Assembly (NCBI GenBank): GCA_030390025.1
Contig: CM059427.1
Coordinates: 20,274,001 to 20,338,000, forward strand
DNA length: 64,000 nucleotides
Reading direction: 5' to 3'
Source: Squalus acanthias
Lineage: Eukaryota
Program-made: the position numbers and the translations under genes
Part shown: positions 19,101 to 61,100 of the stretch, piece by piece
Numbering within the stretch: position 1 is the first letter of the stretch
Layout: each line of letters opens with the position of its first letter
Notes under the pieces: generated by a model
Databases searched by the model: none
What the model was told of the DNA's origin: nothing
What the model saw: only the letters and a program-made list of their open reading frames with translations

Positions 19101-22100
19101 TGTAACCCCACTATTTAAAAAAGGTGGGTGAGAAAAAACGGGGAATTATAGACCGGTAAGCCTGACGTCGGTAGTGTGCAAAATGCTAGAGTCCATTATA
19201 AAAGATGTAATAGCAGAGCACTTGGAAAACAGTGACAGGATCGGACAAAGTCAACATGGATTTACAAAAGGGAAATCATGCCTGACTAATCTACTGGAAT
19301 TTTTTGAGGATGTAACTGGTAGAATAGATAAGAGCGAACCAGTGGATGTGGTGTATTTGGACTTTCAGAAGGCTTTCGATAAGGTCCCACATAAGAGATT
19401 AGCGTGCAAAGTTAAAGCACATGGGATTGGGGGTAAGGTACTGATTTGGATAGAGAACTGGTTGGCAGACAGGAAACAAAGAGTTGGAATAAACGGGTCT
19501 TTTTCCGAGTGGCAGGCAGCGACTAGTGGGGTACCGCAGGGATCGGTGCTAGGACCCCAGCTATTCACAATATATATTAATGATCTAGACGAGGGAACTA
19601 GATGTAATATCTCTAAGTTTGCAGACAACACAAAGCTGGGTGGGCGTGTGTGCTGTGAGGAGGATGCAGAGAAACTCCAGTATGATTTGGACAGGTTGGG
19701 TGATTGGGCAGATGCATGGCAGATGCAGTATAATGTGGATAAATGCGAGGTTATCCACTTTGGTGGCAAAAACAGGAAGACAGATTATTATCTGAACGGC
19801 AATAGATTGGGAAAAGGGGAAGTGCAACGAGATCTGGGAGTCCTTGTGCACCAGTCGCTGAAGGTAAGCATGCAGGTGCAGCAGGCAGTTAAGAAGGCAA
19901 ATGGTATGTTGGCCTTCATAGCGAGAGGATTCGAGTACAGGAGCAAGGATGTCTTGCTGCAGTTGTACAAGGCCTTGGTGAGACCACCCCTTGAGTATTG
20001 TGTGCAGTTTTGGTCGCCTTATCTGAGGAAGATTCACCAGACTGATACCTGGGATGGCAGGAATGACGTATGAAGAGAGATTGGGTCGATTAGGCTTATA
20101 TTCGCTAGAGTTTCGAAGAATGAGAGGGGATCTCATTGAAACTTATAAAATTCTAACAGGATTAGACAGACTAAATGCAGGAAGGATGTTCCCGATGGCG
20201 GGGGAGTCCAGAACCAGAGGTCACAGTCTAAGGATAAGGGGTAAGCCATTTAGGACTGAGATGAGGAGGAATTTCTTCACCCAGAGAGTGGTGAACCTGT
20301 GGAATTCTCTACCACAGAAGGCAGTTGAGGCCAATTCATTAAATATATTCAAGAAGGAGATAGATATATTTCTTAAGGCTAAAGGGATCAAGGGATATGG
20401 GGAGAAAGCAGGGACAGGGTACTGACTTTGGATGATCAGCCATGGTCTCATTAAATGGCGGAGCAGGCTCGAGGGGCCGAATGGCCTACTTCTGCTCCTA
20501 TCTTCTATGCTTCTATGCTTCTATTCATCTTTTTGTCTTTTGTAGGTCGAAAGTAAAGAAACAAAGACAGCTGTGATTGTTCCGGAATGTAACAGAAGCC
20601 ATTCTGGTCGATATAGTATTACTGCTAAGAACAAGGCTGGACAAAAGACAGTACATGTCAGAGTAAATGTTCTTGGTATGTAATTGTTTTATTGAAGTAT
20701 ATTTGAAATAGAATGAATTGTATTAGTTTAATGTGATTATTAAATGAAATATCTTTTGTGTGTTTCAGATATGCCAGGACCACCAAAAGATCTCAAAGTA
20801 AGTGACATTACAAGGAGTACCTGCAGACTTTCATGGAAGCCCCCAGACAATGATGGTGGAGATAGAATTAAATGCTACGTTGTGGAGAAAAAGACTGTAG
20901 AAGGAAAGGCTTGGGTAAAAGCTAATGCTTCATGTGCAGGCACATCATATGTTGTGCCTGATCTTATTGAAGGGCAGGAGTACTTCTTCCGTGTCCGGGC
21001 AGAAAACCGATTTGGCATTGGTGCACCAGTAGAAACCATTCAGAGGACCAGGGCTAGAGATCCAATTCGTAAGTTTATAGTTTTAGAAACATATACTAGT
21101 CCAGTTCAGATATCAGTATAATTCATTTTAGTGGTTCTGCTTTTTGTTAACAATTTTTTTTTTGATGAATGCACTTTTACATTTCAGATCCCCCCGAGCC
21201 TCCAACAAAACTCAAAATTGTTTTGGCTACTAAGAATTCTGTTTCGCTTACTTGGAGGCCACCAAAGAAAGACGGAGGGGCTCCAGTAACACATTACATT
21301 ATTGAATGTCTTGCCTCGGATCCTACTGGACAAAAGAAGGAATCCTGGAAGCAGTGCAACAGACGTGATGTGGAAGAAACCAAGTTTACAGTAGAAGATC
21401 TTAATGAGGGTGGAGAGTATGAATTCCGTGTAAAAGCTGTTAATGAAGCTGGCACTAGTAAACCATGTAACTCTGTTGGACCTATTATTGTGAAAGATCA
21501 AACATGTAAGTACTGACACAATTATGCCATAATGTACCAATGTAAATATAGAAAACACAAGATTTAAATCTACCTAAAATGTACTAAATATTCCCATGTC
21601 TAGGTGCACCTGCAATTGACCTTAAAGAATTCTTAGAGGCAGAACAACATACAGACATCAGCATTGTAGCTAAAATCAAGGGCACACCATTCCCAACTTT
21701 GACATGGTACAAAGCACCTGCCCAGAAACCAGAAGAAAAATCTAAAGTAGAATATGATCAGCATGTTAACAAAATTGTGACTGAGGATGGTTGCACTCTA
21801 CTAGTTCATCAGTCTCTCCGAAAGGACACTGGTCTTTATACCCTCACTGCTACGAACAATTTCGGAACTGCTTCCAAGGAAATGAGACTCAATGTTCTTG
21901 GTAATCTTTTTTATAACTTATCTCTTTAAATTTCTAGTTTTGGTAATGCAATAATAAGTCCATTCCTGTCATTTACTATAACGAGTGTATTTGAGAATAT
22001 TCATATTTTTGACTTTGTTCTAATAATTAGGTCGTCCTGGTCCTCCAGTTGGTCCTATTAAGTTTGAAGGAATTAGTGCTGAGAAGATGACCCTATCATG

Positions 22101-31100: not shown

Positions 31101-34100
31101 GGATGATGGTGGTTGTGAAATTCAAAGCTATACTCTGGAGAAATGTGAAAGTAAGCGAATGGTCTGGTCCGTATATTCCACTTCTATAATTTCTGATTAT
31201 GCAAATGTCACTCGTCTTATTGAAGGAAATGAATATATCTTCAGGGTACGTGCAGAAAACAAAATAGGTACAGGTCCACCAACAGAAACTAAGCCAATTG
31301 TAGCTAAGACACAGTTTAATAGACCTGGCCCTCCAGATGCACCAGAGATCAGTAAAGTTAGCAAGGAAGAAATGACTGTTGTATGGAATGCACCAGAAGA
31401 TGATGGTGGAAGATCAATCACAGGATATATATTGGAGAAGAAAGAGAAAAGATCTGTTAGATGGATACCAGTCACCAAGAGTCCAATCCCAGAGAGACGT
31501 ATGAAGGTTACAAATCTGATTCCTGGATATGAATACCAGTTTCGTGTCAAAGCTGGAAATGAAGTTGGATTAGGAGACCCAAGTGCACCTTCAAGACCAG
31601 TATTAGCAAAGGATCCTATGGGTATTTATTTTTTTAACATTTTGTGAATTTTCTAAACAGGAATATTTTGGTTCCTTTTTCACTCTTTAAATTTGCTGTC
31701 ACTCACACCGCATTCTCCTAATTCATTTCCTATTTTTTCTGTGCGCAGAACCTCCTGGTCCTCCAAGTGGTCTAAAGGTGATTGATAGTACAAAGACCTC
31801 CATTTCTCTTGGCTGGACCAAGCCAGTGTATGACGGTGGTTCTCCCATCACTGGTTATGTTGTTGAAATGAGACCAAAAGGTGTCAGCGAATCTCCTGAA
31901 GAAGGATGGAAGAAATGTAATGTTGCAGCTCAGCTTGTTCATACTCAATGTACTATGACCAGCCTCAATGAGAAAGAAGAATATGAATTTAGGGTTTCTG
32001 CACAGAACCAGGTTGGAATTGGTCAACCTGCTGAACTAAAAGAAGCAGTATCCCCAAAGGAGGTGTTGGGTATGTACTGCATTTTGCCTTTTTTCCCTTT
32101 GTGATGTAAGTAAAACATTTTGTTTATGTGATAATATTTCTTTACAGCAAAATAATTTCACACACACAATGGATTTTTTTCAGAACAACCAGAGATTGAC
32201 TTAGATGCAAGCCTGAGAAAGCTTGTAACCGTCAGAGCAGGATGTCCTATCAGGTTGTTTGCCACTATCAGAGGCCGACCCGCACCTAAAGTTGCCTGGA
32301 GGAGAATGGGAATAGACAACGTTGTCAGAAGGGGTCAAGTAGACTTAATTGACACAATGGCTTTCCTCGTCATTCCTGATAGTACTCGTGATGATTCTGG
32401 CAAATATTCACTGACACTTGTAAACGCAGCAGGCGAAAAGGCAGTGTTTGTGAATGTTAAAGTTCTGGGTGAGTAGTATTCAGTTTTTTTTTGTTCTCGA
32501 TGTTTCCTGATCTGAATTGATCATGGGGGAGGAATTTCTGAAGTGTGTTCAGGAGAACTTTCTTGATCAGTATGTTTCCTGCCCAACGAGGAAGGAGGCA
32601 GTGCTGGATCTAGTCCTGGGGAATGCAGTGGGTCAAGTGGAGAATGTCACAGTGGGGGAGCATCTCAGGAATAGTGATCATAGTATCATAAGGTTTAGAT
32701 TATGGAGAAGGATAAGAAGCAATCTAGAATAAAAATACTTAACTGGAGGAGGGCTAATTTTAGCGAATTGAGGAAAGATCTGGCTCGGGTAAATTGGAGT
32801 CAAAGACTGGCAGGCAGAAATGTAATGGAGAAATGGGCGGCCTTTAAAGAGGACATGGTTTGGGTACAGGTCTAGGTACATTCCTCAAGGGGGAAATGGA
32901 GGGCAACCAAAGCCAGGGCTCCCTGGATGATGAAGGAGTTAGAGAGTAGGATGAAGCAGAAAAAGGGGGCGTATGACAGATGTCAGCTTGATAATAAAAG
33001 GGAGAATCAGGCTGAATATAAAAAGTACAGAGGAGAAGTGAAAAAAGGATAAAAGAGGGGCAAAGAGACAATATGAGAATAGATTGGCAGCTAACATAAA
33101 AGGGAATCTAAAGGTCTTCTATGGGACAGTAAAAGGGTTGTCACAGGAGCGGTGGGGCCGATTAGGGACCAAATGGAGATCTATTGGTAGAGGCAGAAGG
33201 CATGGTTGAGGTACTGAGTACTTTGCATCAGTCTTTACCAAGGAAGAGGACTTTGCCAAAGCTATGGTAAATGAGGAGGTTGACAGGATACTGGATGAGA
33301 TAAAAATAGATAAAAAGGAAATGATAGAAAGGCTGGCAGTACTTAAAGTGGATAAGTCACCTGGTCCGGCTGGGAGGCATCCTAGGTTGCTGAGGGAAGT
33401 AAGGGTAGAAATTGTGGAGGTGCTGGCTACAATCTTCCAATCCTCCTTAGATACAGGGGTGGTGCCAAAGGACTGGAGTATTGCAAATGTTACACCCTTG
33501 TTCAGAAAAGGGGAGAAGGATAAACCTGGCAATTACAGGCCAGTCAGTTTAACGTCGGTGGTGGGGAAGCTTTTAGAAACAATAATCCGGGAGAAAATTA
33601 ACAGCCACTTGGACAAGCATGGACTAATAAAGCAGAGCCAGCACGGATTTGTTAAGGGCAAATTGTGTTTGACTAACTTGATTGAGTTTTTTCATGAGGT
33701 AATAGAAAGGGTGGATGAGGGCATTGCAGTTGATGTTGTGTATATAGACCTTCAAAAGGCATTTGATAAAGGACTAGATAATAGGCTTGTTAGCAAAATT
33801 GATGTTCAAGGGATAAAGGGGGCAGTAGCAACATGGATACAAAATTGGCCAAGGGATAGAAAATAGAGATTTATGGTGAATGGCAGTCTTTCGGACTGGA
33901 AGGAGGTATAGAGTGGAGTTCCCCAGGGTTCAGTACTAGGACCACTGCTGTTTTTGATATGCATTAATGACTTTGACTTGTACAGGGCACAATTTTGAAA
34001 TTTGCAGATGACACAAAACTTGGAAGTGTAGTAAACAATGAGGAAGGTAGTAATAGACTTCAAGAGGACATGGAATGGGTGGACACACGGTGGAATGGGT

Positions 34101-43100: not shown

Positions 43101-46100
43101 GTGGATGGTGGCAGTCCAGTTAAAAATTACATTGTAGAGAAACGAGATGCTGAAAGAAAGGCGTGGTCAACTGTAGCAACTGAATGTGCCAAGACAAGTT
43201 TCAGAATTATTAACTTGGAAGAAAGTAAATATTACTACTTCAGAGTTCTGGCTGAAAATGAGTATGGCATTGGTGAACCTTGTGAGACAAAAGATGCTGT
43301 GAGAGCTTCAGGTAAAGAATAAAATAATACCTGTTAGAGTGTAGCATAATTATTTTTCATAATGTAATACAGAGCAAAAAACTATGCATATTGTAATTTT
43401 TTGCCACTAAAAATAATGCATTTTATTAATATAGAAGAACCTGGGCCTGTGATAGACTTGAAGACTGCAGCTGTGTCCAAGAAATCTTGCACTTTGACAT
43501 GGAAAAAACCAATCAGTGATGGTGGAACCCGAATTATTGCTTATGTTGTTGAAATGATGCTTGAAGGGGACAGGTTGCACGAGTTGATGAGGTCCAAGAA
43601 TATGACATTTATAACAAATGAACTGGAAGAAGGAAAAGAATACACTTTCAGAGTAAGAGCACAGAATGATGCTGGATACAGTGTCCCACGTGAAATTACA
43701 GTTCTAGCAAAGGATCAAATTGGTGAGTAATTTTTCACATTACTATAGTAACAAGCTCCTATTGACGTCTACAGTTTGTCTTGCAATAAATACAAGTTTG
43801 ATTACAAGTGTGAATCGTTGAAAGTAGAATAAATAATATTTGGTAATGGTAGCTAACCAAACTAGACCTAGATAGACACATGACACTTTACCTTGTCCTC
43901 AGAATGTTCTAAAGTGCTTCATAGCTAATAAATTACTTTTAAAGTGTAGTCACTGCTGTTATGTAGACAAATATGGCAGCCACTGGAAATAAGGCGAATA
44001 ACCAGTACACTTTTTTGTTGAGGAAGGAATGTTGTCCAGGATTTCAGAAAAATTCTCTATTCTTCTTCAAATTGTGCCATGGTATCTTTTACATGCACCT
44101 GAACCACCAAAGCAGATTGATGGAGCCTCAATTTAACATCTCAGCATTTCCTCAATACTACATTCAGTTGTCAGCCTAGATTACATGCTCAAGCCCAAAT
44201 GGAGCTTGAACCTACAAAGTTCTGACTGTGAGATGGGTGTGCGAAATGAGGCACACTAACACCTAATCCTACAACAACTACAACCTTTAAAATGGCACTT
44301 AACCCTGTAACAATCCTGTAAAGCCTATACGTGTAACAATTTAATCTGGAGGTAGGTGAGCTTTAAAAAAAAAATGTGGTAATCTGCTTGGCAATTAACA
44401 GGTTTAAACTAAAACTACAACAATCAGATAGGATGTTTTGAATTTAAAAGGGAACCTCACCACCAGTAAACTAAACTATTAGGTCATGTCTGACTAATCT
44501 AGTTGAATTCTTTGAGGAGGTCACTAACAAGGTGGACAGAGGAGTGTCTATGAATGTTATCTATATGGATTTCCAGAAGGCATTTGATAAGGTTCCGCAC
44601 AAGAGATTATTAGCAAAATGAGAGCTAAGAAAGACAAATCGTAATATTTTCTTAATGGCGAGAGACTAGGAGCTGTAGAGGAGCAAAGGAATTTGGGTGT
44701 CCAGGTACACAAATCACTAAAAGCTAGTGCACAGGTACAAAAAGTAATCAAAAAGGCTAATGGAATGTTGTTGTTTGTCTCAAGAGGGTTGGAATACAAA
44801 GGGGAGGAAGGTATGCTTCAGTTGTACAGAGCCTTGGTCAAACCATCAGGAGTATTGCATTCAGTTCTGGGCACCGCACCTCAGGAAGGATATATTAGCC
44901 TTGGAGTGGGTATAGCACAGATGCATTTTCTTGAGTTTAAAAAGTTGAAGGGTGATCGAATTGAGGTGTTTAAATTGATAAATGGATTCAATAGAGTAGA
45001 TACAGAGAAGCTATTTTCTCTGGTGGAGGAATCCAGAACATGGGGATACAATCTTAAAATTAAGACTAGGTCATTCCTGAGTGAAATCAGGAAGTACTTT
45101 TTCACACAAAGGGTAGTGGAAATATGTAATTCTTTCCCCCCAAAAGGCTGTGGATGCTGAGACAATTGAAATTTTCAAAACTGACATTAACAGATTTTTA
45201 TTAGGTTAGGGTATCAAGGGATATGGATTGAAGGCAGGTAAATGGAGTTGAGTTACAGATCGGCCAAGATCTAATTGAATGGCGTGACGTCGAGAGGCTG
45301 AATGGCCCACTCCTGTTCCTATTATAGGATATACATAGTATTTCCACCTTTATTTATAAGGTTCCAAGTCTTAATAAATTACATTTTTCTTACATTATTA
45401 AGGTTGGCACAAGCTAAATACACAATATGAGCAGTGGTTCTAATAGTTACATCAGTTGGTCAGTGACCGTTATAATAATCTCATTGAAATTGTTTAGCCT
45501 ATGTCACCTATGGTAAATTATTTTAAGTCAATCCTCAATCTACACAGTATACCTTCTTAAGGTTTTACCTATAATAAAACATTGCAAGTTATTATTAAAA
45601 CATAAGAGCGGTTTCAAAATATAATTATCAAAATTGAAATTTGAACTTATTAAACTAAATCACTCTCTTTTTCTCAATAGTACCACCAAATATTGATTTA
45701 AGAGACATCCCTGACCTAACATACATTGCCAAGGAGGGAAGTAGTATCCGTATAAAGATTCCAATCAGTGGCAAACCTGCACCAAATGTAACATGGAAGA
45801 AAGGTGAAGACCAGCTACAGGAAAGTGGAAGAGTATATGTGGAATCCACAGCAATTAATACAACACTCGCAGTGCGAGATTGTCAAAAGAATGACGCTGG
45901 AAAATACACAATCAACTTGAAGAATGCTGCTGGCACGAAAGAAGCTGCACTATTCATGAAAGTAGTTGGAAAGCCTGGAATACCAACTGCACCTTTACGT
46001 TTTGATGACGTAACGGCAGATGCACTTACTTTAATCTGGGCCCCCCCTAAGGATGATGGTGGTGCAGAAATTACTAATTATATTTTAGAAAAGCGAGATA

Positions 46101-49100
46101 ACTTCACCAATAAATGGGTGACATGCGCCTCTGCTGTACAAAAAACAACATTCAGAATTACAAGGCTTCATGAAGGAAATGAGTACATGTTTAGAGTCAG
46201 TGCTGAGAATAAATATGGAGTGGGTGAAGGCCTGAAATCCGACCCTATCATAGCCAGGCATCCATTTGGTAAGCATCAATGCAATTTGCAACTAAACTTT
46301 AATTATAGTGCTACATTCATTTTTAAACTGATTAATATTTCTCTCTCTCCCTCCCCCAAGATGTGCCTGATGCTCCTTTACCACCAGAAATAGTTGCAGT
46401 CAGACATGACTCTGTCTCCCTTACTTGGACGGATCCAAAGAGGACTGGTGGCTCCCCTATCACAGGTACAAAGTATAAATTTCTCCCTTTTGACCAGCAA
46501 TTAAACATATATAACTTTGCAACATTTATTTTAAACTATTTATTTTTTTGCACCAGGTTATCATGTTGAGTATAAAGAAAGAAACAGCCTCCTTTGGAAG
46601 CGAGCAAGCAAGACCGCACTAAGAATGAAGGATTTTAGAGTGCCAGGCTTGACTGAAGGTCTTGAATATGAATTTAGAGTTATAGCAATTAACTTGGCTG
46701 GTGAAGGCAAACCTAGTGGACCATCACATCCCGTTACTACACTTGATCCAATTGGTATGTGAAATCCATTGCACAGTTGCTCATTTGTTATTATTACATA
46801 TTATAAATGATAAAATCATCATCTGACATATAAAATGTTTTTCTTTTCAGATCCTCCTGGAAAACCTGAAGTCATTAATGTTACCCGGAACTCTGTGACC
46901 CTAATCTGGACTGAGCCAAAGTATGATGGTGGTCACAAACTAGTTGGCTACATTGTTGAGAAACGTGACCTGCCTTCAAAGGCCTGGATGAAAGCAAATC
47001 ATATTAACATTCAAGAGTGTGCTTTTACTGTTAATGATCTTACTGAGGGCTGTAAGTATGAATTCCGTGTAAGAGCAAAGAATGGAGCAGGAGCAATTAG
47101 TCCACCATCTGAAACTACAGGAACCATTATCTGCCAGGATGAATATGGTATGTCATTTTCTTTTTTTGCCACATGATTAAAAAAAATGTAAAAAATACAT
47201 TTAGTATTACTAATACACTTCTTTATTTCTTTTACACCCACAGTACCACCAACAATTGTAATTGATCCGACTATTAAAGAAGGCTTAACAGTTAAAGCTG
47301 GTGAAACTATTATAATTACTGCTACTAGTATTCTTGGCAAACCTCCACCAACATCAGTATGGTCTAAGGGTGGAAAAGACTTCAAGGTCTCTGACATTGT
47401 CCAAATTGAAAAAACTCCAACTTCCTCAACACTGTCTGTTAAATACGCTACTAGAAAAGATTCTGGCGAATATACTATCGCTGCCAGCAATCCATTTGGC
47501 ATCAAAGAAGAACATGTGCATGTGAAAGTGTTGGATGTTCCAGGTCCTCCAGGACCTATTGAAATAAGCAATGTTTCATCTGAGAAAGTTACACTAAATT
47601 GGTTACCTCCAGCTGAAGATGGAGGTTCTCCAGTCAAATCTTACACAATCGAAAAGAGAGAAACCAGTCGTCTTCTCTGGACTTTAGTTGCCGAAAATGT
47701 TCCAAGCTGCAGATATGTTGCAAGCAAACTTATACAGGGAAATGAATATATCTTCCGTGTCTCTGCTCTAAATCATTATGGGATTGGTGAGCCAGTACAG
47801 GCGGAACCAGTTAAGATGGTGGATAGTTTTGGTAATCACATTTATTTTAAAATATTGAGCATTACATGACTTTTGTATATTTGGCTTGATAGAAATATAA
47901 ACTTCATTTGTGATATTCCTCTTTCAGGTCCCCCTGGCCCACCTGCAAAGCCTGAGGTTACTAATGTTACCAAAAATACAGTTACTATTGGCTGGAAGAG
48001 GCCAGCTGATGATGGTGGTAGTGAAATCACAGGATACATTGTGGAGCGTAAAGAAAAGAAAGGCCTCAGATGGGTTAGAGCAACAAAGAAACCAATCTCA
48101 GATCTACGACATAAAGTAACAGGACTCAGTGAAGGAACTGAGTATGAATTCCGTGTCAGTGCAGAAAATAAGGCAGGCATTGGCGCACCAAGTGAACCGT
48201 CACAACCAGTATTGACAAAAGATGTAGCATGTAAGTATTAAATTTACATCACAGTTTTCTCATCTTTGTTATCAGTGAATTATTCTGTGAAAATAGACAT
48301 ACTTAAATATAACTATGTTATTTTCTTTTCATTTAATTTATACAGATGTACCTGGACCGCCTTCTAACCCAAGAGTGGTTGACACAACAAAGACTACTGC
48401 TAGTTTGACTTGGGGAAAACCCCACTATGATGGTGGCCTTGACATTATTGGCTATATAGTCGAACACAAGAAAGAAGGAGATGAGAACTGGATAAAAGAC
48501 ACAACAGGCACTGCACTCAGAATAACTGAATTTGTTGTTGCTAACCTTCAGACAGGAGAAAAATACCACTTCCGAGTTAGTGCCCTCAATGCAGAGGGTG
48601 TTGGTGAACCTGCACAAGTTGAAGGTGTTATTGAAATTAAGGAACGTGAACAAGGACCTGATTTTGAGTTAGATGCTGAGCTGAGAAGAACTCTTGTTGT
48701 CAGAGCTGGAGTAACCATTCGCATTTTTGTACCAATCAAGGGACGTCCAACTCCTGATGTCACATGGTTTAAAGGAGACATCCCTGTTAAAGGCCGTGCC
48801 ACTGTAGAAACCACAGATTCATACACATTTCTGCATATCCCAGACTGCACAAGATATGATGCTGGAAAGTACACAATGTGTCTTGAAAATGTTGCTGGTA
48901 AAAAGAGTGGTTTTGTAAATGTGAGAGTCCTAGACTCACCAGGACCACCTATAAATCTCAAAGCCAGAGAAATAACAAAAGATAGCATTACAATCCAATG
49001 GGATACGCCAATGATTGATGGTGGTTCACGGGTAACCAATTACATTATAGAAAAGCGAGAATCAACTCGGAAGGCATACTCTACCATCACAACCAATTGC

Positions 49101-52100
49101 CAGAAATGTTCACTCAGAATTGTCAATTTGTCAGAAGGATGTGAGTATTATTTCAGAGTAATGGCAGAGAATGAATATGGCATAGGTGAACCAGCTGAGA
49201 CTGCAGATCCTTTAAGAGCATCTGAAGCCCCATCACCTCCAGAACGCCTGCATATTATGGATATAACTAAGCATACTGTTAGTCTAGCTTGGCCAAAACC
49301 AGAACATGATGGCGGTAGCAAGATTACAGGATATGTACTTGAGGCACAGAAGAAAGATTCTGAAAAGTGGCTGCCTCTGGCAACTGTAAAGGCACTAGAT
49401 TATGTTGCAAAGAATCTTAATGAAAATGAAGAATATACATTCCGAGTCATAGCAGTAAATGCTGCTGGAAGGAGTGATCCACGAGAAAGCAAACCCGTTG
49501 TTGTCAAGGAACAAACAATGCTTCCAGAATTTGATCTGCGTGGCGTATACCAGAAGCTTGTGATTGCAAAGGCAGGTGATAATATCAAAGTTGATATCCC
49601 TGTTCTTGGTCGGCCAAAACCAACAGTCACATGGAAGAAGGAAGACCAGCCTTTGAAGCAAACACAGAGAATAAATATTGAAAATACAGCAAACTCAACC
49701 ATACTTAACATCAATGAATGCATAAGAAATGACTGTGGCAAGTTTACACTGACAGCTAGAAATATACTTGGTGAAGTAAGTGACATCATCACTGTTCAGG
49801 TTCATGACATACCTGGACCCCCCAAAGGGCCAATTAAATTTGATGAAATTTCATCTGACTACCTTTTGCTGTCATGGGAGCCTCCTGAAAATGATGGTGG
49901 AGTGCCAATAAACAATTACATTGTAGAAATGCGTGAGACCAACAGTACTTCATGGGTAGAGCAAGCAGCTACTGTAATACGTACATCATTTAAAGCTCCT
50001 CACCTTACGACTGGAACTGAATACCAATTCCGAGTTAAGGCTCAAAACAGATATGGTACTGGTCCTGCAATTGCTTCAGAGGCTGTTGTTGCAGCATATC
50101 CATTTAAGGTGCCTGGACCTCCTGGAACTCCACAAGTTATTGCCGTTAATAAGGATTCAATGACTATCACCTGGAATGACCCTGTTTCTGATGGTGGAAG
50201 TCCCATTTTGGGATACCACATTGAAAGAAAGGAAAGAAATAGTATACTGTGGCAAACTATAAGTAAGACTTCGGTTGTAGGCACCACGTTTAAATCAGCT
50301 GGGCTTACAGATGGCATTGCATACGAATTCCGTGTTGTAGCAGAAAACATGGCTGGGAAAGGTAAACCAAGTAAACCATCAGAATCAGTATATGCATTGG
50401 ACCCCATTGATCCTCCTGGTAAACCAGTTCCACTTAACATTACAAGACATTCTGTAACACTCACCTGGACAAAACCAGAATATGATGGAGGCTTTAAGAT
50501 AACTGGTTACACAGTTGAAAAGAGAGATATGCCTAATGGCCGCTGGCTTAAGGCAAACTTTAGCAATGTGCTAGAGACTGTGTTTACTGTCAGTGGTCTT
50601 AATGAAGGTGACACATATGAATTCCGCATAGTAGCTCGAAATGCTGCTGGTTCGGTAAGCAAGCCATCTGAGCCTACTGATGCAATAATATGCAGAGATG
50701 ACATTGAAGAACCCAGAATAATGGTTGATGCTAAATTCAGGACTGTTTTACTATTGAAAGCTGGTGAAAACTTCAAACTTGAGGCGGATGTTAGAGGACA
50801 GCCACCACCAACAATGGTTTGGACGAAAGATGGAAATGATCTTGAAGAAACAGGAAAAATAGAAGTAAAGATGACAGATTTCTCTACTGTTCTAATCCAC
50901 AAAGACAGTGTAAGAAGAGATGGTGGTGCTTATACACTTACTGCATCCAATCCTGGAGGATCAGCGAAGCATGTTTTTAACGTCAAGATTTTGGATAGGC
51001 CAGGACCTCCTGAAGGACCTATAGTAATTTCAGACGTCACATCAGAAAAATGTGTGATATCATGGTTGCCACCACCAGATGATGGCGGTGCAAAGATTGA
51101 ACATTATGTAGTTGAAAAACGTGAAACCAGTAGACTTGCGTGGACAAGTGTGGCTGCAGATGTTCAAATAACCAAATTAAAGATAACCAAACTTCTGAAA
51201 GGGAATGAATATATTTTCCGTGTTATGGCAGTAAATAAATACGGGGTTGGTGAGTCATTAGAATCTGATCCTGTTGCTGCTGTTAATCCATTTGTACCAC
51301 CTAGCCCACCAAAGACACCTGAAGTTACAGCAATTACAAAGGATTCAATGGTGGTTTGTTGGGGACATCCTGATTCTGATGGTGGAAGTGAAATTACTAA
51401 CTACATTGTTGAGAGGCGTGACAAGACAGGAATGCGTTGGGTTAAATGTAACAAAAGAACAGTCACTGATTTACGATACAAAGTTGGTAGGCTCACAGAA
51501 GGACATGAATATGAATACAGAATCATGGCTGAAAATGCTGCTGGTGTAAGTCAACCCAGTTCTTCCAGCTCATACTACAAAGCAATTGACACTGTATTCA
51601 AACCTGGACCACCAGGTAACCCTAGAGTGCTAGATACCAGCAGATCTTCAATCACTATTGCATGGAATAAACCTATTTATGATGGTGGCTCAGAAATTAC
51701 AGGTTACATGGTTGAAACAAGTCTACCTGAAGAAGATGAATGGACAGTTGTAACACCACAGAGTGGACTCAAGGCTACATCATTCACAATCACTGATCTA
51801 AAAGAAAACCAAGAATACAAAGTTCGCATATATGCTATCAACTCTGAAGGTATTGGAGAGCCTGCACAAATTCCTGGAACAGCTAAAGCTGAAGAAAGGT
51901 TATTGCCTCCTGAGATTGAGCTTGATGCAGACTTGCGCAAAGTGGTATCTATAAGAGCTTGCTGCACTTTGAGATTATTTGTTACAGTTAGAGGAAGACC
52001 AACACCTGAGATTAAATGGGCAAGGGCAGATGGGGAGCCCCTAGATAGAGCTTCAATTGAAACTACAAGCTCATACACTCTCCTTATCATTTCAAATGTA

Positions 52101-55100
52101 AATCGATTTGATAGTGGCAAATATGTCTTAACAGTAGAGAACAGTGGCGGCAGCAAGACTGCTTTTGTAAATGTTAGAGTTCTGGATACCCCAGGAGCAG
52201 CACAAAATCTTAAAATTAAGGAAGTTTCCAAAGACTCTGTTACAATTACTTGGGAGCCCCCACTCATTGATGGTGGCTCCAAGATTAAGAATTACATAGT
52301 GGAGAAAAGAGAATCGACAAGAAAAGCATACTCTACAGTGATTGCCAACTGTCATAAGACAAGCTGGAAGGTGGATCACTTACAAGAAGGTTGTAACTAT
52401 TACTTCCGTGTCCTAGCTGAAAATGAGTATGGAATAGGTCTTCCTGTTGAGACAGCTGACTCAGTTAAAGTATCAGAAAGACCACTTCCACCAGGCAAAG
52501 TAACTCTTGTGGATGTGACAAGAAACAGTGCAGTTTTGTCATGGGAAAAACCAGAGCATGACGGAGGCAGCAGAATTTTAGGATACATAGTGGAAATGCA
52601 AAGTAAAGGCAGTGAAAAGTGGACAACATGTACGACCGTGAAAGTAACTGAAGCCACCATAAAAGGTTTGACACAAGGTGAAGAGTATATGTTCCGAGTA
52701 TCAGCACAAAATGAGAAAGGTGTCAGTGATCCTCGACAGCTGGGAGTCCCTGTAATTGCGAAGGATCTTGTGATTGCTCCTGCTTTTAAGCTTCTATTTA
52801 CCACATTCAGTGTCCTAGCAGGAGAAGATTTAAAAGTTGATGTACCATTTATTGGACGCCCTATACCAACAGTATCTTGGCTGAAAGATAATCAGTCATT
52901 AAAACAAACAACAAGGATTAATGCTGAGAGCAAAGATAATAAAGCAGTTCTGATCATCAAGGAGGCCTGTCGTGAAGATGTTGGTCAGTACAATATAAAA
53001 CTTACAAATACTGCTGGTGAAGCATCTGAAAATCTTAGTATTGTTGTTTTAGACAAGCCTGGGCCTCCAACTGGACCAGTCAAAATTGATGAGGTTACTG
53101 CGGACAATATCATTATATCATGGAATCCGCCAGAATATGATGGTGGCTGTCAAATCAGTAATTATATTGTTGAAAAGAGAGACACTTCAACCACTGTCTG
53201 GCAGATTGTTTCTGCTACTGTTGCCCGAATAACTATCAAAGCTGCACGTTTAAAGACTGGTACCGAATATCAATTCAGAATTGCAGCTGAAAATAGATAT
53301 GGAAAGAGCAGTTATCTTACTTCTGAATCCGTTGTGGCACAATACCCTTACAAGACCCCTGGTCCACCTGGTACTCCTTTCATAACAAATATTTCAAAGG
53401 ACAGCATGGTAGTACAATGGAATGAACCTGTCAATGATGGTGGCAGCAAGATTCTAGGTTACCATCTTGAACGCAAAGAAAGAAACAGCATCTTATGGAT
53501 CAAACTGAACAAGTCAATTATTTCTGATACTAAATTAAAGTCCATTAATCTTGAGGAGGGCATTGAATATGAATATAGAGTGTACGGTGAGAATATTGTT
53601 GGCATTGGCAAACCTAGCAAAGTATCTGAATGTGTAGCAGCTAGAGATCCTTGTGATCCTCCTGGTCGTCCTGAAGCTCTAATTGTCACTAGAAATGCAG
53701 TGACACTGCAGTGGACCAAACCTGAATATGACGGTGGCAGCAAAGTCACTGGCTACATTGTTGAAAAGAAAGAACTTCCAGATGGTCGTTGGATGAAGGC
53801 CAGCTTTACTAATGTCATTGATACCCAGTTTGCTGTAACTGGCTTAGTAGAGGACCAGAGATACGAGTTCAGGGTAATTGCTAGAAACGCAGCTAGTGTA
53901 TTCAGTGAACCATCTGAATCCACTGGTCCAATTACTGTTAGAGATGAAGTAGACCCACCTCGAATTAGCATGGATCCACAATATAGGGAAACTATTGTAG
54001 TACATGCAGGTGAATTATTCAAAATTGAAGCTGATGTTTATGGCAAACCAATACCTACAATCCAGTGGATGAAAGTAGAGAAAGAACTTGCAAATACAGC
54101 TCGGCTTGAAATTAAAAGTACAGACTTTAACACAATTCTGACTGTCAAGGAAACTATTCGTGTCGACAGTGGCCAGTATACCCTGTTGGTAAAGAATGTA
54201 GCTGGTCAAAAGTCTGTTGCTGTTAATGTGAAGGTGCTAGACAGACCAGGACCACCAGAAGGGCCAATTGCTATAACTGGGGTAAATGCTGAGAAATGCA
54301 CATTAAACTGGAAGCCACCAAAACAAGATGGTGGCAGTGATGTTTCACATTACATTGTTGAAAAAAGAGAAACAAGTCGTTTGGTTTGGACAGTAGTTGA
54401 GTCTAATCTACAGACTCCGAGTTGCAAAGTTACCAAACTTCTGGAAGGAAATGAATATATCTTCCGTGTTATGGGTGTAAACAAATATGGTGTCGGTGAG
54501 GCACTTGAATCTGATCCAGTAATAGCAAAGAATCCATTTGTACGCCCTGATGCACCAAAAGCACCTGAGGTTACCGCTGTCACAAAGGACTCAATGGTAG
54601 TTGTATGGGAAAGACCTGCATCCGATGGTGGTAGTGAAATTCATGGTTATATTTTGGAAAAACGTGACAAGGAGGGCATAAGATGGACAAGGTGTAACAA
54701 ACGGCTGGTTAGTGAACTACGTTTCAGGGCAACTGGACTTGTTGAAAACCATAATTATGAATTTAGGGTATCTGCTGAGAATGCTGCTGGTGTCAGTGAA
54801 CCAAGTCCATGCTCCATTTTCTACAAGGCATCTGACCCTATCTACAAACCTGGACCACCCAACAATCCTAAAGTAACTGATTTTACAAGATCTTCTGTTT
54901 TCCTTTCATGGGGAAAACCCTATTTATGATGGTGGATGTGAAATCCAAGGATACCTTGTAGAGATGTGTGATATAAGTACTGATGAATGGACAATGTGCA
55001 CTCCAGCAAGTGGCATTAAGCAGACCCGATTTGAAGTGGATAAATTGGTGGAAAAGCATGAATACAAGTTCCGTGTCTGTGCTGTCAATAAGGCTGGAGT

Positions 55101-58100
55101 TGGTGAACATGCTGACATTCCTGACACTGTCCTTTTGGAGGATAAATTAGAAACCCCAGATCTTGACCTTGATGCTGATTTAAGGAAGGTTATTAATGTC
55201 AGAGCTAGTTGTTCATTGAGATTATTTGTTCCTATCAGAGGGCGTCCTGCTCCAGAAGTGAAATGGACCAAGGCAGATGGTGAAATAAGGGATACCGCAC
55301 AGATTGAAGTTTCTGAAAGTTATACATTACTTGTAATTGATAATGTTAACAGATATGACTCTGGCAAATACATATTAAATTTAGAAAACAGTAGCGGAAC
55401 AAAATCTGCCTTCATTACTGTGAGAGTCCTTGATACACCAAGCCCACCAATTAATCTTAAAGTAAAGGAGATAACAAAGGATAATGTCACCTTATCCTGG
55501 GAACATCCTCTGTTGGATGGAGGTGCTAAAATTAAGAATTTCATTGTAGAAAAGCGAGAATCAACAAGGAAAGCCTACTCAGCTGTTATCACCAACTGTC
55601 ACAAGACTTCTTTTAAGATAGAACAACTTCAGGAAGGTTGCAATTATTATTTTAGAGTAACTGCTGAAAACGAGCATGGAATTGGATTACCTGCAGAAAC
55701 TGTTGACCCAGTTAAAATATCTGAGGTGCCACAGCCTCCAGGAAAAATAACAGTGGTTGATGTGACAAGAAAGACTGTGTCCCTTAAGTGGGAGAAACCA
55801 GAACATGATGGTGGTAGCAAAATTATCCAGTATATTGTAGAAATGCAAACTAAAGGTAGTGAAAAATGGTTAGCATGTGCTCATGTAAAATCACTTGAGG
55901 CAATAATCAATAGCCTGACACAAGGAGAGGAGTATCTGTTTAGAGTCATGGCAGTAAATGAAAAAGGCAAGAGTGACCCAAGAACTCTTGCAGTGCCAGT
56001 CGTTGCTAAAGATCTAGTGATTGAACCAGATGTCAGACCAGCATTTACTAGTTATAGTGTACAGGTAGGACATGACTTAAAAGTTGAGATCCCTATAGCT
56101 GGACGTCCTAAACCAAAAATTACTTGGACAAAGGATGGTCAGCCACTCAAGCAGACAACTAGAGTCAATGTTATTGATTCTGACAATAATACAGTACTAA
56201 GCATCAAGGAATCAACTAGAGATGATAGTGGATTGTACGGTATCACTGTAGCTAATGTTGTTGGACAAAAGGCAGCATCTATTGAAATAATAACACTTGA
56301 TAAGCCTGGTCCACCAAGTGGCCCTGTAAGGTTTGACACAGTTAGTGCTGAAAGCATCGCAATTTCATGGGATCCACCAAGCTTTACTGGTGGCTGTCAG
56401 ATTACTAACTATGTAGTTGAGAGGAGAGATACAACTACCATAAACTGGGAGATTGTTTCAGCTACAATTGCTAGAACAAGTCTAAAGATAACCAAACTTA
56501 AAACTGGAGCAGAATATCAGTTTAGAATATTCGCCGAAAATAGGTATGGTAGAAGTTTTGCTTTGGATTCTGAGGCAGTTTTAGCACAGTATCCATTTAA
56601 AGAGCCTGGCCCACCAGGTACACCATTCGTAGCAACTGTTACTAAGGACAGCATGGAGGTGCAGTGGCATGAACCAATTAATGACGGAGGTAGCAAAATC
56701 TTGGGATACCATCTTGAGCGCAAAGAAAGAAACAGTATTCTTTGGACAAAAATCAATAGAACCATTATACAGGACACAAGATTTAAGACCACAGGACTTG
56801 AAGAAGGCATTGAATATGAATTCAAAGTATATGCTGAAAATATTGTTGGTATTGGAAAACCCAGCAAAGTGTCTGAATGCTATGTTGCTCGTGATCCATG
56901 TGATCCTCCAGGTTGTCCGGAAGCCATTATCGTAACCAGGAACTCAATATCACTTCAATGGACAAAGCCAGAATACGATGGTGGCAGCATCATTACTGGA
57001 TATATAGTAGAGAAACGTGATTTACCTGAGGGTCGCTGGATGAAGGCAAGCTTTACAAATGTCATTGAAACTCAATTCACTGTAACTGGTCTCACTGAAG
57101 ATGAAAAGTATGACTTCAGGGTTATCGCTAAGAATGCTGCAGGTACAATTAGCAAACCATCTGATAACACAGGGCCAATCACTGCAAAGGATGAAGTTGA
57201 ACCACCTAGAATATCTATGGATCCAAAATACAGAGACACAATAGTGGTTAATGCAGGTGATGCATTTAAGCTAGATGCTGATGTTCATGGCAAACCACTG
57301 CCCATTATCCAGTGGTTCAAAGGTGAAAAGGAAGTTGAAGAATCGGCAAGACTTGAGGTTAAAAATTCTGATTTCAAAGCTTTACTTCATGTTAAGGATG
57401 CAATCAGAGTGGATGGTGGGCAGTACATTCTTCAAGCTTCTAATGTGGCTGGTACAAAATCTGTTCCTATCAATGTAAAAGTGTTGGACAGACCAGGACC
57501 TCCAGCAGGTCCAATCCAAGTTACTGGTGTGACTGCTGAAAAGTGTTCATTATCTTGGGGCTCACCACAACATGATGGTGGAAGTGATATTTCACACTAT
57601 ATTATTGAGAAAAGAGAAACTAGTCGCCTTGCTTGGACTGTTGTGACTTCAGATGTCAAAGCTACTATGCATAAAGTTACCAAGCTTTTGGAAGGTAATG
57701 AATATATCTTCCGTATAATGGCTGTCAACAAGTTTGGTGTTGGTGAACCCTTGGAGTCTGCACCCGTTCTAATGAAGAACCCATTTGTACCTCCTGGTCC
57801 ACCAAAATCTTTGGAAGTGAGCAATATTGCAAAAGACTCAATGACTGTCAGCTGGAATAGACCAGATAACAATGGTGGTAGTGACATTATAGGTTATATT
57901 GTAGAGAAGAGGGACAGGACTGGAATCAGATGGATAAAGTGCAACAAGCATAGAGTAACAGATTTGCGCTTCAGAGTCACAGGACTCGCAGAAGACCATG
58001 AATATGAATTTAGATTATCTGCTGAAAATGCTGCTGGAATTGGTGTACCAAGTCAGCTAACACATTTCTATAAAGCATGTGATCCTGTTTACAAACCTGG

Positions 58101-61100
58101 GCCACCAGCAAATCCACACGTTGCAGACACTACCAAAGATTCGATTGTGCTTGTTTGGGGAAAACCAATTTATGATGGTGGCAGTGACATTCAAGGATAC
58201 ATAGTAGAAATCCGCAAAGCAGATGAGGAAGACTGGGCAATGTGCACGCCACAATCTGGACTACAAGTCACCCGCTTTGAAATTGGAAAACTTACTGAAC
58301 ATCAGGAATACAACATTCGTGTATGTGCCATCAACAAGGTTGGAGTTGGTGAGCCAGCATCAGTACCCGGTACAGTTAAAACAGAAGATAAACTTGAAGC
58401 AGCTGAAATTGAACTTCCAGCAGAGTTAAGAAAAGGAATCACAGTCAGAGCTGGTAATACTGCCAGAATCTTTATACCATTTAAAGGTAGACCAATTCCC
58501 GAGATCAGCTGGTCAAAGGATGAGGGCGAACTACCTGAAAAATCTCAAGTAGAAAAGGGCCTAAATTATACTCAAGTAACAATAGACAACTGTGATAGAA
58601 ATGATGCTGGGAAATATATTCTGACTTTGGTGAACAGCAGTGGTACTAAGTCTGCGTTTGTTACAGTAAAAGTTCTTGACACACCTGGAGCGCCACAAAA
58701 TTTAACTGTAAAGGATATAAGGAAAGAATCAGTTACATTACTGTGGGAACCACCCATTATTGATGGAGGTGCAAAGATTAAAAACTATGTTATTGATAAG
58801 CGAGAATCAACCAGAAAAGCTTATGCTAATATAACTGCTAAATGTAACAAGTGCAGTTTCAAAGCTGAGAATCTCACTGAAGGAGCTACTTATTACTTCC
58901 GAGTGATGGCAGAGAATGAGTTTGGTGTTGGTATACCTGTTGAGACTACGGATGCTGTAAAGACTTCTGAGCCACCTTTACCACCAGGAAAAATCACCCT
59001 TGTTGATGTCACTCAAAAGAGTGTGTCTCTAATTTGGGAGAAGCCCGAACATGATGGAGGTAGCAGAATCATGGGATACTTGGTTGAAATGCAGCCTAAA
59101 GGATCTGACCAATGGGCTGTTGTTACCCAATCCAAGACATGCGATGCAGTAATTCCTGGGCTCAGTTCAGGGCAGGAATATCTCTTCCGTGTAATTGCTT
59201 TCAATGAGAAAGGAAAAAGTGACCCTAGACTCTTGGCTGTGCCAGTGATAGCTAAAGATCAAAGTATTGCACCTGAATTCAGACTCATGTTCAACACATA
59301 TAGTGTCCAGGCCGGGGAGAACCTAAAGGTTGAGGTTCCATTTATTGGCCGTCCTAAACCTAAGATTATATGGATGAAGAATGAGCAGACACTAAAACAG
59401 ACAACAAGAGTTAATGTGGAGGAAGCAGCAACAGCAACAATCCTTTTTATTAAAGAAAGTCACAGAGATGACTATGGGAAGTATTCAGTAAGTGCTTCAA
59501 ATAGTGCCGGGACAGTAACAGAAGAGATTGGCATTATTGTGCTTGATAAGCCAGGTCCTCCAGTTGGACCATTACGATTTGATGAAGTTAGTGCTGATTT
59601 TGTCATAATATCTTGGGATCCACCAGAGTATACTGGAGGCTGTCAAATTAACAACTACATTGTTGAAAAGCGGGACACAACCACTACTGCTTGGCAGCTG
59701 GTGTCTGCAACTGTGGCAAGAACAACTATTAAAGTTAGTAAACTTACCACAGGATCTGAATATCAGTTCAGAATCTTTGCTGAAAATAGATATGGAAAGA
59801 GTTCATCTTTAGATTCTACAGCAGTCATTGCACAGTACCCATACAAACAACCTGGTCCACCAGGTACTCCATTTGTGTCAGCTGCTACAAAGGACACCAT
59901 GATAGTACAATGGAATGAACCAGTGATTGATGGCGGAAGTAACATTTTGGGTTACCATCTTGAACGCAAAGAAAGGAACAGTATTCTTTGGACAAAATTG
60001 AACAAAACAATTATTCAAGATACCCATTACAAGTGTAATAATCTAGAAGAAGGTATTGAATATGAGTTCAGAGTTTATGCAGAGAATATTGTTGGCACTG
60101 GAAAATCTAGCAAGGTGTCTGAATGTTTTGTAGCCCGTGATCCTTGTGATCCTCCTGGCCGTCCTGATGCTGTTGTCATCACAAGAAATTATGTTACTCT
60201 ACAATGGAAAAAACCTCAGTATGATGGTGGTAGCAAAATTACTGGATACGTGGTAGAAAAGAAAGAACTTCCTGATGGCCGCTGGATGAAAGCTAGTTTT
60301 ACCAACATAATTGACACTGAATTTACTATTACTGGATTAACTGAAGATGCAAGATATGAATTTAGAGCAATTGCGAGAAATGCAGCTGGTATTTTCAGTG
60401 AACCATCTGAAAGCACTGGACCAATTACAGCAAGAGATGAAATTGAAGCTCCAAGAGCTTCCATGGACCCTAAGTACAAAGATGTAATAGTTGTTAATGC
60501 AGGGGACAGCTTTGTACTGGATGCTGACATCTATGGTAAACCTGTACCTGATGTAACATGGATCAAAGATGGCAAAGATATTGAAGCAAATGTTGCCAGA
60601 ATGGAGACTAAATCTACCATTCAAAAAACTAGTCTGACTGTCAAGGACTGTATACGAATTGATGGAGGACACTATGTACTTAAGCTCAGTAATGTAGGTG
60701 GAACAAAATCTATTCCAATAACTGTTAAGGTCCTTGATAGGCCTGGTCCTCCTGAAGGTGTTTTGACGGTTTCTGGTGTAACTGCTGAAAAGTGCTACTT
60801 GGCTTGGAACCCACCTTCTCAGGATGGCGGTGCCAATATTTCTCACTACATAATAGAAAAGAGAGAAACTTCCAGACTTTCATGGACACAAGTAGCACCT
60901 AATGTGCAAGCTATTAGTCACAAAGTAACCAAACTTCTTCCGGGTAATGAGTATATATTCCGTGTAATGGCGGTAAACAAATATGGAATCGGTGAACCAC
61001 TGGAATCTGAGCCAATTGTGGCTAAAAACCCATTCCATACACCGAGTGCACCAACAGTGCCTGAGGTTGCAACTATTACGAAAGACTCTATGGTTGTGAC

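What the first reader, a model, noticed from the sequence alone, without database searches (positions are those of the whole stretch)
54909..54930. 1-bp frameshift in the giant constitutive A-band exon of titin
Seen: tgg gga aaa ccc tat tta TGA (stop at 54927-54929). The paralogous positions in neighbouring super-repeats read W.KPIYDGG (aaa cct att tat gat at ~51669, aaa cca att tat gat at ~58162, aag cca att tat gat at ~61411). Removing one C from ccc restores WGKPIYDGG and a frame open for ~3,026 codons. Super-repeat spacings are 3252, 3247, 3246 and 3249; only the one spanning this site is not a multiple of 3. No splice signals rescue it. Known: heterozygous A-band titin truncations cause dilated cardiomyopathy in humans and homozygous ones are lethal in vertebrate models. 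Inference: most likely an assembly indel in the ggggaaaaccc homopolymer run, since no other exon here is disrupted. If real, it would be a natural titin-truncating allele in domain A86.
Basis: partly seen in the sequence, partly recalled or inferred. Interest (0 to 1): 0.7.

Follow-up and report, generated by a model that had tools for sequence, protein, structure and literature searches.

The report
Assembly typo in shark titin gene
One extra letter breaks the titin muscle gene in this shark genome assembly, but three more one-letter breaks sit in the same gene and other big genes are broken just as often, so it is most likely a sequencing error rather than a real mutation.

Summary
At 54909 the window reads TGG GGA AAA CCC TAT TTA TGA. 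The frame shifts by +1 in FN3 domain A86 of titin's giant A-band exon, and no plausible splice rescues it. All 48 alignable long homologues, whale shark included, are open there, and G000 has one titin locus.

Beyond the window the same gene carries three more one-base frame switches: N2B exon, late-PEVK exon and domain A167. Of 14 unrelated large exons elsewhere in the assembly, 3 are also broken by one base. That is about 1 break per 26 kb in titin against 1 per 31 kb in controls. The protein downstream of A86 shows no relaxed evolution.

Best reading: a run-length indel error of the assembly (about 0.95). A real heterozygous truncating allele is unlikely (about 0.03) but not excluded, because no read, contig or protein of the same organism could be seen over the site. 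Its argument 'no other exon is disrupted' holds only inside the window; the other breaks are the best evidence for error. No earlier scan finding matched 'titin frameshift'.

The parts
54918..54920 (+). CCC run holding the extra base (after G4 and A4); the frame moves by +1 here
   Evidence: Sequence; read-through gives WGKPIYDGG; 88 of 120 homologues switch frame here in tblastn
54927..54929 (+). Premature TGA, three codons after the CCC
54846..55131 (+). FN3 domain A86 (last domain of C-zone super-repeat C4), split over two frames
   Evidence: HMM halves 54846-54920 and 54913-55131, count back from A170; 8BNQ match
48345..54917 (+). Giant A-band exon, part before the break (A64 to the start of A86; 2,191 codons)
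54919..64000 (+). Giant A-band exon, part after the break; it continues past the window to A121 (about extended position 65445), 3,507 codons in all
51663..51689 (+). Paralogous motif in A75 ([18 protein letters not shown]), in frame
58156..58182 (+). Paralogous motif in A97 (WGKPIYDGG), in frame
61405..61431 (+). Paralogous motif in A108 (WGKPIYDGG), in frame

Best explanation
The assembly has one base too many in a short C run inside titin domain A86, and this is most likely a consensus error of the genome assembly, the animal's gene probably reading AAA CCT ATT (K-P-I) in an unbroken frame. Shown: the break, the stop, intact homologues, three more one-base breaks in this gene, three in 14 control exons, and no decay downstream. 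Inferred: that these breaks are run-length errors left after long-read consensus and polishing. The sequencing technology of G000 is not known to me.
For: (1) Four one-base frame switches in about 102 kb of titin coding sequence examined. They are A86; A167 at G000:C3:~20365645, where 102 of 120 homologues switch frame and sturgeon P0197 reads [17 protein letters not shown] straight through; the N2B exon at ~20112135, where skate titin P0363 aligns 1-488 in one frame and 484-1090 in the next; and a late-PEVK exon at ~20235210 (overlapping ORFs at an A6 run, internal evidence only). Two lie upstream of A86, so they cannot be decay after an A86 stop. (2) Controls: 3 of 14 large exons elsewhere (94 kb) are broken by one base (sacsin-like on C27, Xin-repeat genes on C3 and C8). 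That is 1 per 31 kb against 1 per 26 kb in titin (binomial P 0.55); the control rate predicts 3.3 breaks in titin, P(at least one) 0.96. (3) All seven can be read as a one-base change in the length of a run (my reading). (4) 48 of 49 long homologues align over the site in one frame, with Pro at the break. (5) No relaxed evolution after the stop: own against sister changes 76:90 upstream and 128:170 downstream versus P0126 (Fisher p 0.33-1.0 over three outgroups); all A-band domains to A170 and the M-band Ig domains are present. (6) One titin locus only (16 of 16 matches at E 1e-15 lie in it), and homozygous A-band truncations kill zebrafish embryos by 4-10 days (PMC12854356, passages), so a fixed break is not viable. 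(7) Homopolymers are a known source of residual assembly error that causes frameshifts (PMC12212083, passages).
Against: No read, contig or protein of the same organism was seen over the site: 0 of 4 laid runs cover it, and the best identities in three protein searches were 86%, 92% and 80%. In high-accuracy human HiFi assemblies about 78% of genes with frameshifts were supported as true variants (PMC12212083, passage), so a frameshift in an assembly is not an error by default. Real slippage mutations also change run length. The control breaks were not checked against reads and some may be real alleles. A C run of 2-3 is short for an error hot spot. Against whale shark one of three outgroups gave a borderline shift (63:98 up, 87:86 down, p 0.05; the other two p 0.27 and 0.33). 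The long-homologue search could only return unbroken frames, so it cannot show that no relative is broken.
Confidence: 0.95

Rival explanations
1. The extra C is a real heterozygous titin-truncating allele in the sequenced animal, and the assembly shows the mutant haplotype. Its transcripts would stop in A86 and lack most of the C-zone, the kinase and the M-band.
For: The sequence shows frameshift and stop in an exon that is open in 48 of 49 homologues. Heterozygous fish survive (PMC12854356, passage). A recent allele would show no downstream decay, as seen. Most frameshifts in HiFi human assemblies are real.
Against: It needs the other three titin breaks and the three control breaks to be errors or further real nulls; the background rate alone predicts 3.3 breaks in titin. 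That real truncating alleles in constitutive exons are carried by under about 1% of people is recalled; the paper read gives up to 3% for all TTNtv.
Confidence: 0.03
2. The assembled haplotype is an old null allele of titin, sheltered in heterozygotes, which gathered several frameshifts after a first hit.
For: Four breaks in one assembled copy of the gene.
Against: No in-frame stop in the 3,507 codons after A86, no excess of amino-acid change, and the same break rate in unrelated genes on C27, C8 and elsewhere on C3.
Confidence: 0.01
3. The extra C is fixed in the species and ribosomes slip +1 at CCC-U (or the polymerase slips in the G4-A4-C3 run), so full-length titin is still made.
For: In-frame CCC followed by T lets a proline tRNA re-pair at CCT after a +1 slip (sequence); that CCC-U sites are prone to +1 slips is recalled.
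Against: No homologue keeps a break here. The G GGA AAA heptamer fits the recalled -1 pattern, but the frame needs +1. An abundant structural protein would need near-complete slippage, and three other breaks would need their own rescue.
Confidence: 0.005
4. A cryptic intron spanning the site is spliced out and restores the frame.
For: 634 GT-AG pairs of the right length class exist within 600 nt.
Against: 0 of 634 have both sites at or above the 5th percentile of the gene's inferred sites; any would remove conserved FN3 sequence that homologues keep.
Confidence: 0.005

Closest known systems
Titin/connectin of cartilaginous fishes (elephant shark, PMC12241362, abstract and Results read; whale shark model P0162)
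   Same: Same A-band layout to A170, N2B exon, middle-Ig super-repeats and M-band; 86% identity to elephant shark P0032 over 310 aa around the site, 89% to whale shark over the giant exon.
   Different: Those sequences are open at A86; this assembly has a +1 break there and three more elsewhere. The middle-Ig segment here has 75 domains against 63 and 51.
Residual indel errors of long-read assemblies that cause false frameshifts (PMC12212083, passages read)
   Same: One-base run-length changes in coding exons of unrelated genes, with otherwise intact proteins.
   Different: Not confirmed by reads here. In that paper's HiFi human assemblies most frameshifts were real and about 106 genes per haplotype carried one; the rate here, about 1 per 30 kb of large-exon coding sequence, is far higher (my comparison).
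A-band titin-truncating variants (TTNtv) of people and the zebrafish ttn.2 e201 line (PMC12854356, passages read)
   Same: If real, a frameshift with a stop in the mid A-band, distal to the Cronos start (position inferred), would remove the kinase and M-band.
   Different: No read support, no genotype, no phenotype; other breaks lie in the same assembled copy.

Membership tests
Vertebrate titin (TTN/connectin) | A-band of Ig and FN3 domains with eleven 11-domain C-zone super-repeats ending at A170 | tested here: met
   Domain string and count; matches to titin chains 8G4L, 8Q6T, 8BNQ, 2NZI
Vertebrate titin (TTN/connectin) | Giant A-band exon of about 5,700 codons | tested here: met
   2,191 + 3,507 codons here; homologous ORFs of 5,618-5,804 aa
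Vertebrate titin (TTN/connectin) | N2B, middle-Ig and M-band regions in the same gene | tested here: met
   the kinase was placed by position between A170 and the first M-band Ig, not by a profile search
Assembly indel error | One-base change in the length of a run | tested here: met
   CCC where homologues imply CC
Assembly indel error | Absent from accurate reads of the same individual | tested here: inconclusive
   0 of 4 laid runs cover the site
Assembly indel error | Homologues intact and no decay of the downstream protein | tested here: met
Assembly indel error | Similar breaks at a similar rate in unrelated genes of the assembly | tested here: met
   3 of 14 exons, 1 per 31 kb against 1 per 26 kb
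Titin-truncating variant (TTNtv) | Frameshift with premature stop in a constitutive A-band exon | tested here: met
   Met in the assembly only; constitutive use of the exon is recalled from human titin
Titin-truncating variant (TTNtv) | Allele present in reads, with an intact second haplotype | tested here: inconclusive
   No cover; no second copy of the stretch in G000
Titin-truncating variant (TTNtv) | Stands out from the assembly's background of breaks | tested here: not met
Titin-truncating variant (TTNtv) | Truncated protein, lowered transcript or muscle phenotype | not testable with these tools
   No run on record as RNA holds the stretch
Programmed +1 ribosomal frameshift | Frame break and shift site kept in related species | tested here: not met
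   48 of 49 long homologues are open at the site; the search could only return open frames
Programmed +1 ribosomal frameshift | Trans-frame product shown by peptides or ribosome profiling | not testable with these tools
   none

The most novel reading that the evidence does not exclude
The extra C is real: this shark carried a natural A-band titin-truncating allele of the kind that causes dilated cardiomyopathy in people, hidden among the assembly's errors. I found no such report for a shark in the paper searches.
Probability: 0.03. Interest if true: 0.45.

Novelty: not a real feature. Interest (0 to 1): 0.07.

Why it matters
As an error it matters only as a warning. This assembly seems to break about one codon frame per 30 kb of large-exon coding sequence, so single frameshifts or 'pseudogenes' called from it need reads before they are believed, and its titin model will be split or patched. 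If the allele were real it would be a natural carrier of an A-band titin truncation in a cartilaginous fish with one titin locus, useful for asking how such alleles persist outside mammals and teleosts.

Tried and rejected
Read evidence: the look-up of sequencing runs listed 23 runs, five of one organism holding 0.94-0.96 of the sampled words, no RNA holder listed. That share cannot place a difference: one indel would remove only about 3 of 324 words (my estimate), so it is no evidence either way. Four runs laid on 53500-56500 gave no cover of the site (X1 and X4 nothing, X5 one short piece at 53947-53976, X6 short pieces elsewhere); the tool notes that a filter drops contigs, so this is no finding. 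A same-species protein over the site was sought in three searches (lengths 544-2000, 1833-5833 and 275-875 aa; best 120 listed in each) and not found; the two members of the nearest cluster are 88-89% identical, another species; the exact upstream ORF is not in the collection. A second titin copy or haplotig: none. Splice rescue: rejected at A86, A167 and the PEVK break; two passable pairs (893 and 944 nt) exist at the N2B break, but the skate protein aligns across that stretch. A -1 slip at G GGA AAA: wrong direction. Weak tblastn frame switches at 8220, 22260, 24780 and 25560 (one protein each): 22260 was viewed and is an open exon; the others fall at exon-intron edges in the domain scan. 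The junction at 4050-4135 that the intron scan missed is an ordinary intron. One control hit was left out of the count: a 308-aa plectin-repeat frame amid simple repeats on C1560. One-base differences between the duplicated I-band units were looked at and give no verdict on error. Supplements of the papers were not opened.

Full report
Observation. The window reads TGG GGA AAA CCC TAT TTA TGA from 54909, with the stop at 54927-54929. An ORF of 2,210 codons ends there, and a second in the +1 frame starts at 54877 and runs to extended position 65502. In the giant exon every spacing between successive W..P..DGG motifs is a multiple of three except the one across this site. Read through at the C run, the protein is [20 protein letters not shown]. 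Dropping a G or an A instead would give WENPIY or WGNPIY; homologues favour the C.

The gene. It is titin of a cartilaginous fish: 86% identity to elephant shark titin around the site and 89% to a whale shark model over the giant exon. Profiles built from the locus find the A-band domains in the expected order, and counting back from the FN3 domain before the kinase region makes the split domain A86. The read-through matches PDB 8BNQ, which is A84-A86 of super-repeat C4 (PMC10665226, passages). DNA and protein searches of G000 find this one locus only (16 of 16 protein matches). Elephant shark titin has nearly the same A-band layout as human (PMC12241362, abstract and Results).

No rescue. A splice model trained on 109 inferred A-band introns of this gene finds 0 of 634 frame-restoring GT-AG pairs with both sites at or above the 5th percentile. 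Of 49 homologues of 4,500 aa or more, 48 align over the site in one frame with Pro at the break; one tunicate protein gave no alignment there. That search returns only unbroken frames, so it shows conservation, not that no relative is broken. A programmed slip would have to be +1; the G GGA AAA heptamer fits the recalled -1 pattern, which is the wrong direction.

Direct test failed. Five public runs of one organism hold 94-96% of the sampled words, but none of four runs laid on 53500-56500 covers the site. Three protein searches found no same-species sequence over it. The verdict below is therefore indirect.

More breaks in the same gene. I read 190 kb upstream and 50 kb downstream; the 5' end of the gene was not examined. 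With 120 homologues, tblastn shows two well-supported frame switches: at 54919 (88 proteins) and at extended 91645 (102 proteins). The second lacks one base in A167, just before A168 (2NZI match); sturgeon P0197 reads straight through. Upstream, the N2B exon switches frame in an A-rich run at G000:C3:~20112135; skate titin P0363 aligns 1-488 in one frame and 484-1090 in the next. A large late-PEVK exon switches at an A6 run near 20235210, on internal evidence only. That makes four breaks in about 102 kb of coding sequence examined. Short PEVK exons were not scanned. Inside the window A86 is the only break.

Controls. Four Pfam searches of G000 (Plectin, HEPN, Xin, SAMP) gave 15 large-exon stretches; one 308-aa frame amid simple repeats was left out. 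Of the 14 kept (94 kb), 11 are open: sacsin, five plakin-type exons on C8, C18, C24, C2339 and C3242, two on C9, one on C1560, APC and APC2 (gene names are recalled from domains and motifs). Three are broken by one base: a sacsin-like gene on C27 just before its HEPN domain, a Xin-repeat gene on C3 in the middle of its repeat array, and a Xin-repeat gene on C8 at or near a G6 run. The rate is 1 per 31 kb against 1 per 26 kb in titin (binomial P 0.55), and it predicts 3.3 breaks in titin by itself. These controls were not checked against reads either.

No decay. After the stop come 3,507 open codons. Against P0126 the window's lineage has 76 own changes to 90 of the sister upstream and 128 to 170 downstream; Fisher p is 0.56, 0.33 and 1.0 with three outgroups. 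Against whale shark p is 0.05, 0.27 and 0.33, with own and sister changes about equal downstream. An old null allele is not supported; a recent one would not show.

Mechanism. Shown: seven one-base breaks in large exons of unrelated, otherwise intact genes. Inferred: run-length errors in the assembly consensus. Homopolymers are a known source of residual error that leads to frameshifts; the same paper reports that about 78% of genes with frameshifts in HiFi human assemblies were true variants, about 106 genes per haplotype (PMC12212083, passages). That counts against assuming error, but the rate here is far higher and hits one essential single-copy gene four times. Homozygous A-band truncations kill zebrafish embryos by 4-10 days while heterozygotes survive (PMC12854356, passages), so only a heterozygous allele is a live alternative. 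I put assembly error at 0.95, a real heterozygous allele at 0.03, an old null haplotype at 0.01, recoding and cryptic splicing at 0.005 each.

Novelty. As an error it is not a biological feature. Searches (listings only, apart from the papers named above) showed no report of a natural titin truncation in a shark. The scan's own notes hold no titin frameshift finding; one note reports a frameshift in another gene of this genome, which I did not check.

Noticed in passing
L007:7645 (G000:C3:~20365645): Second titin frameshift: one base missing in FN3 domain A167, just before A168.
   Followed up: yes
L026:~8135 (G000:C3:~20112135): Third titin frameshift: one base missing in an A-rich run of the N2B exon; skate titin P0363 reads through.
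   Followed up: yes
L013:~1210 (G000:C3:~20235210): Fourth candidate: +1 switch at an A6 run in a large (about 800-codon) K/E/P-rich exon near the end of the PEVK region; no homologue was checked.
   Followed up: partly
L023-L021 (G000:C3:~20138400-20160300): A 7.76-kb unit of 12 Ig exons (two 6-Ig super-repeats) is present about three times at 98-99% DNA identity, introns included. The middle-Ig segment thus has 75 domains, about ten 6-Ig repeats, against eight in whale shark and six in elephant shark. Either a very recent lengthening of the titin spring or a false duplication; read depth would tell.
   Followed up: partly
L045:~5618 (G000:C3:~41159618) and L047 (G000:C8:~32060040, minus strand): Both Xin-repeat genes found (XIRP2- and XIRP1-like, names recalled) carry one one-base frameshift in their giant exon.
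   Followed up: yes
L040-L041 (G000:C27:~985200-996200): A second, divergent sacsin-like giant exon (3,569-codon frame, 31% identical to the C7 sacsin) with a one-base break just before its HEPN domain.
   Followed up: partly
L042-L043 (G000:C3242:~165200-176500): A plectin-like last exon of 3,765 codons with about 11 plakin-repeat domains spaced about 984 nt apart, several scoring identically; human plectin has six (recalled). Recent internal expansion or an assembly expansion.
   Followed up: no
window 15402-20549 (elements at about 18660-20420; also 33200-33900, 44600-45200): LINE-like reverse-transcriptase fragments in titin introns (recognised from recalled motifs), one inside the intron that splits Ig domain A15.
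   Followed up: no
window 6127-6950: A G-rich tandem repeat open in all three forward frames, inside the intron that splits an FN3 domain of the I/A junction.
   Followed up: no
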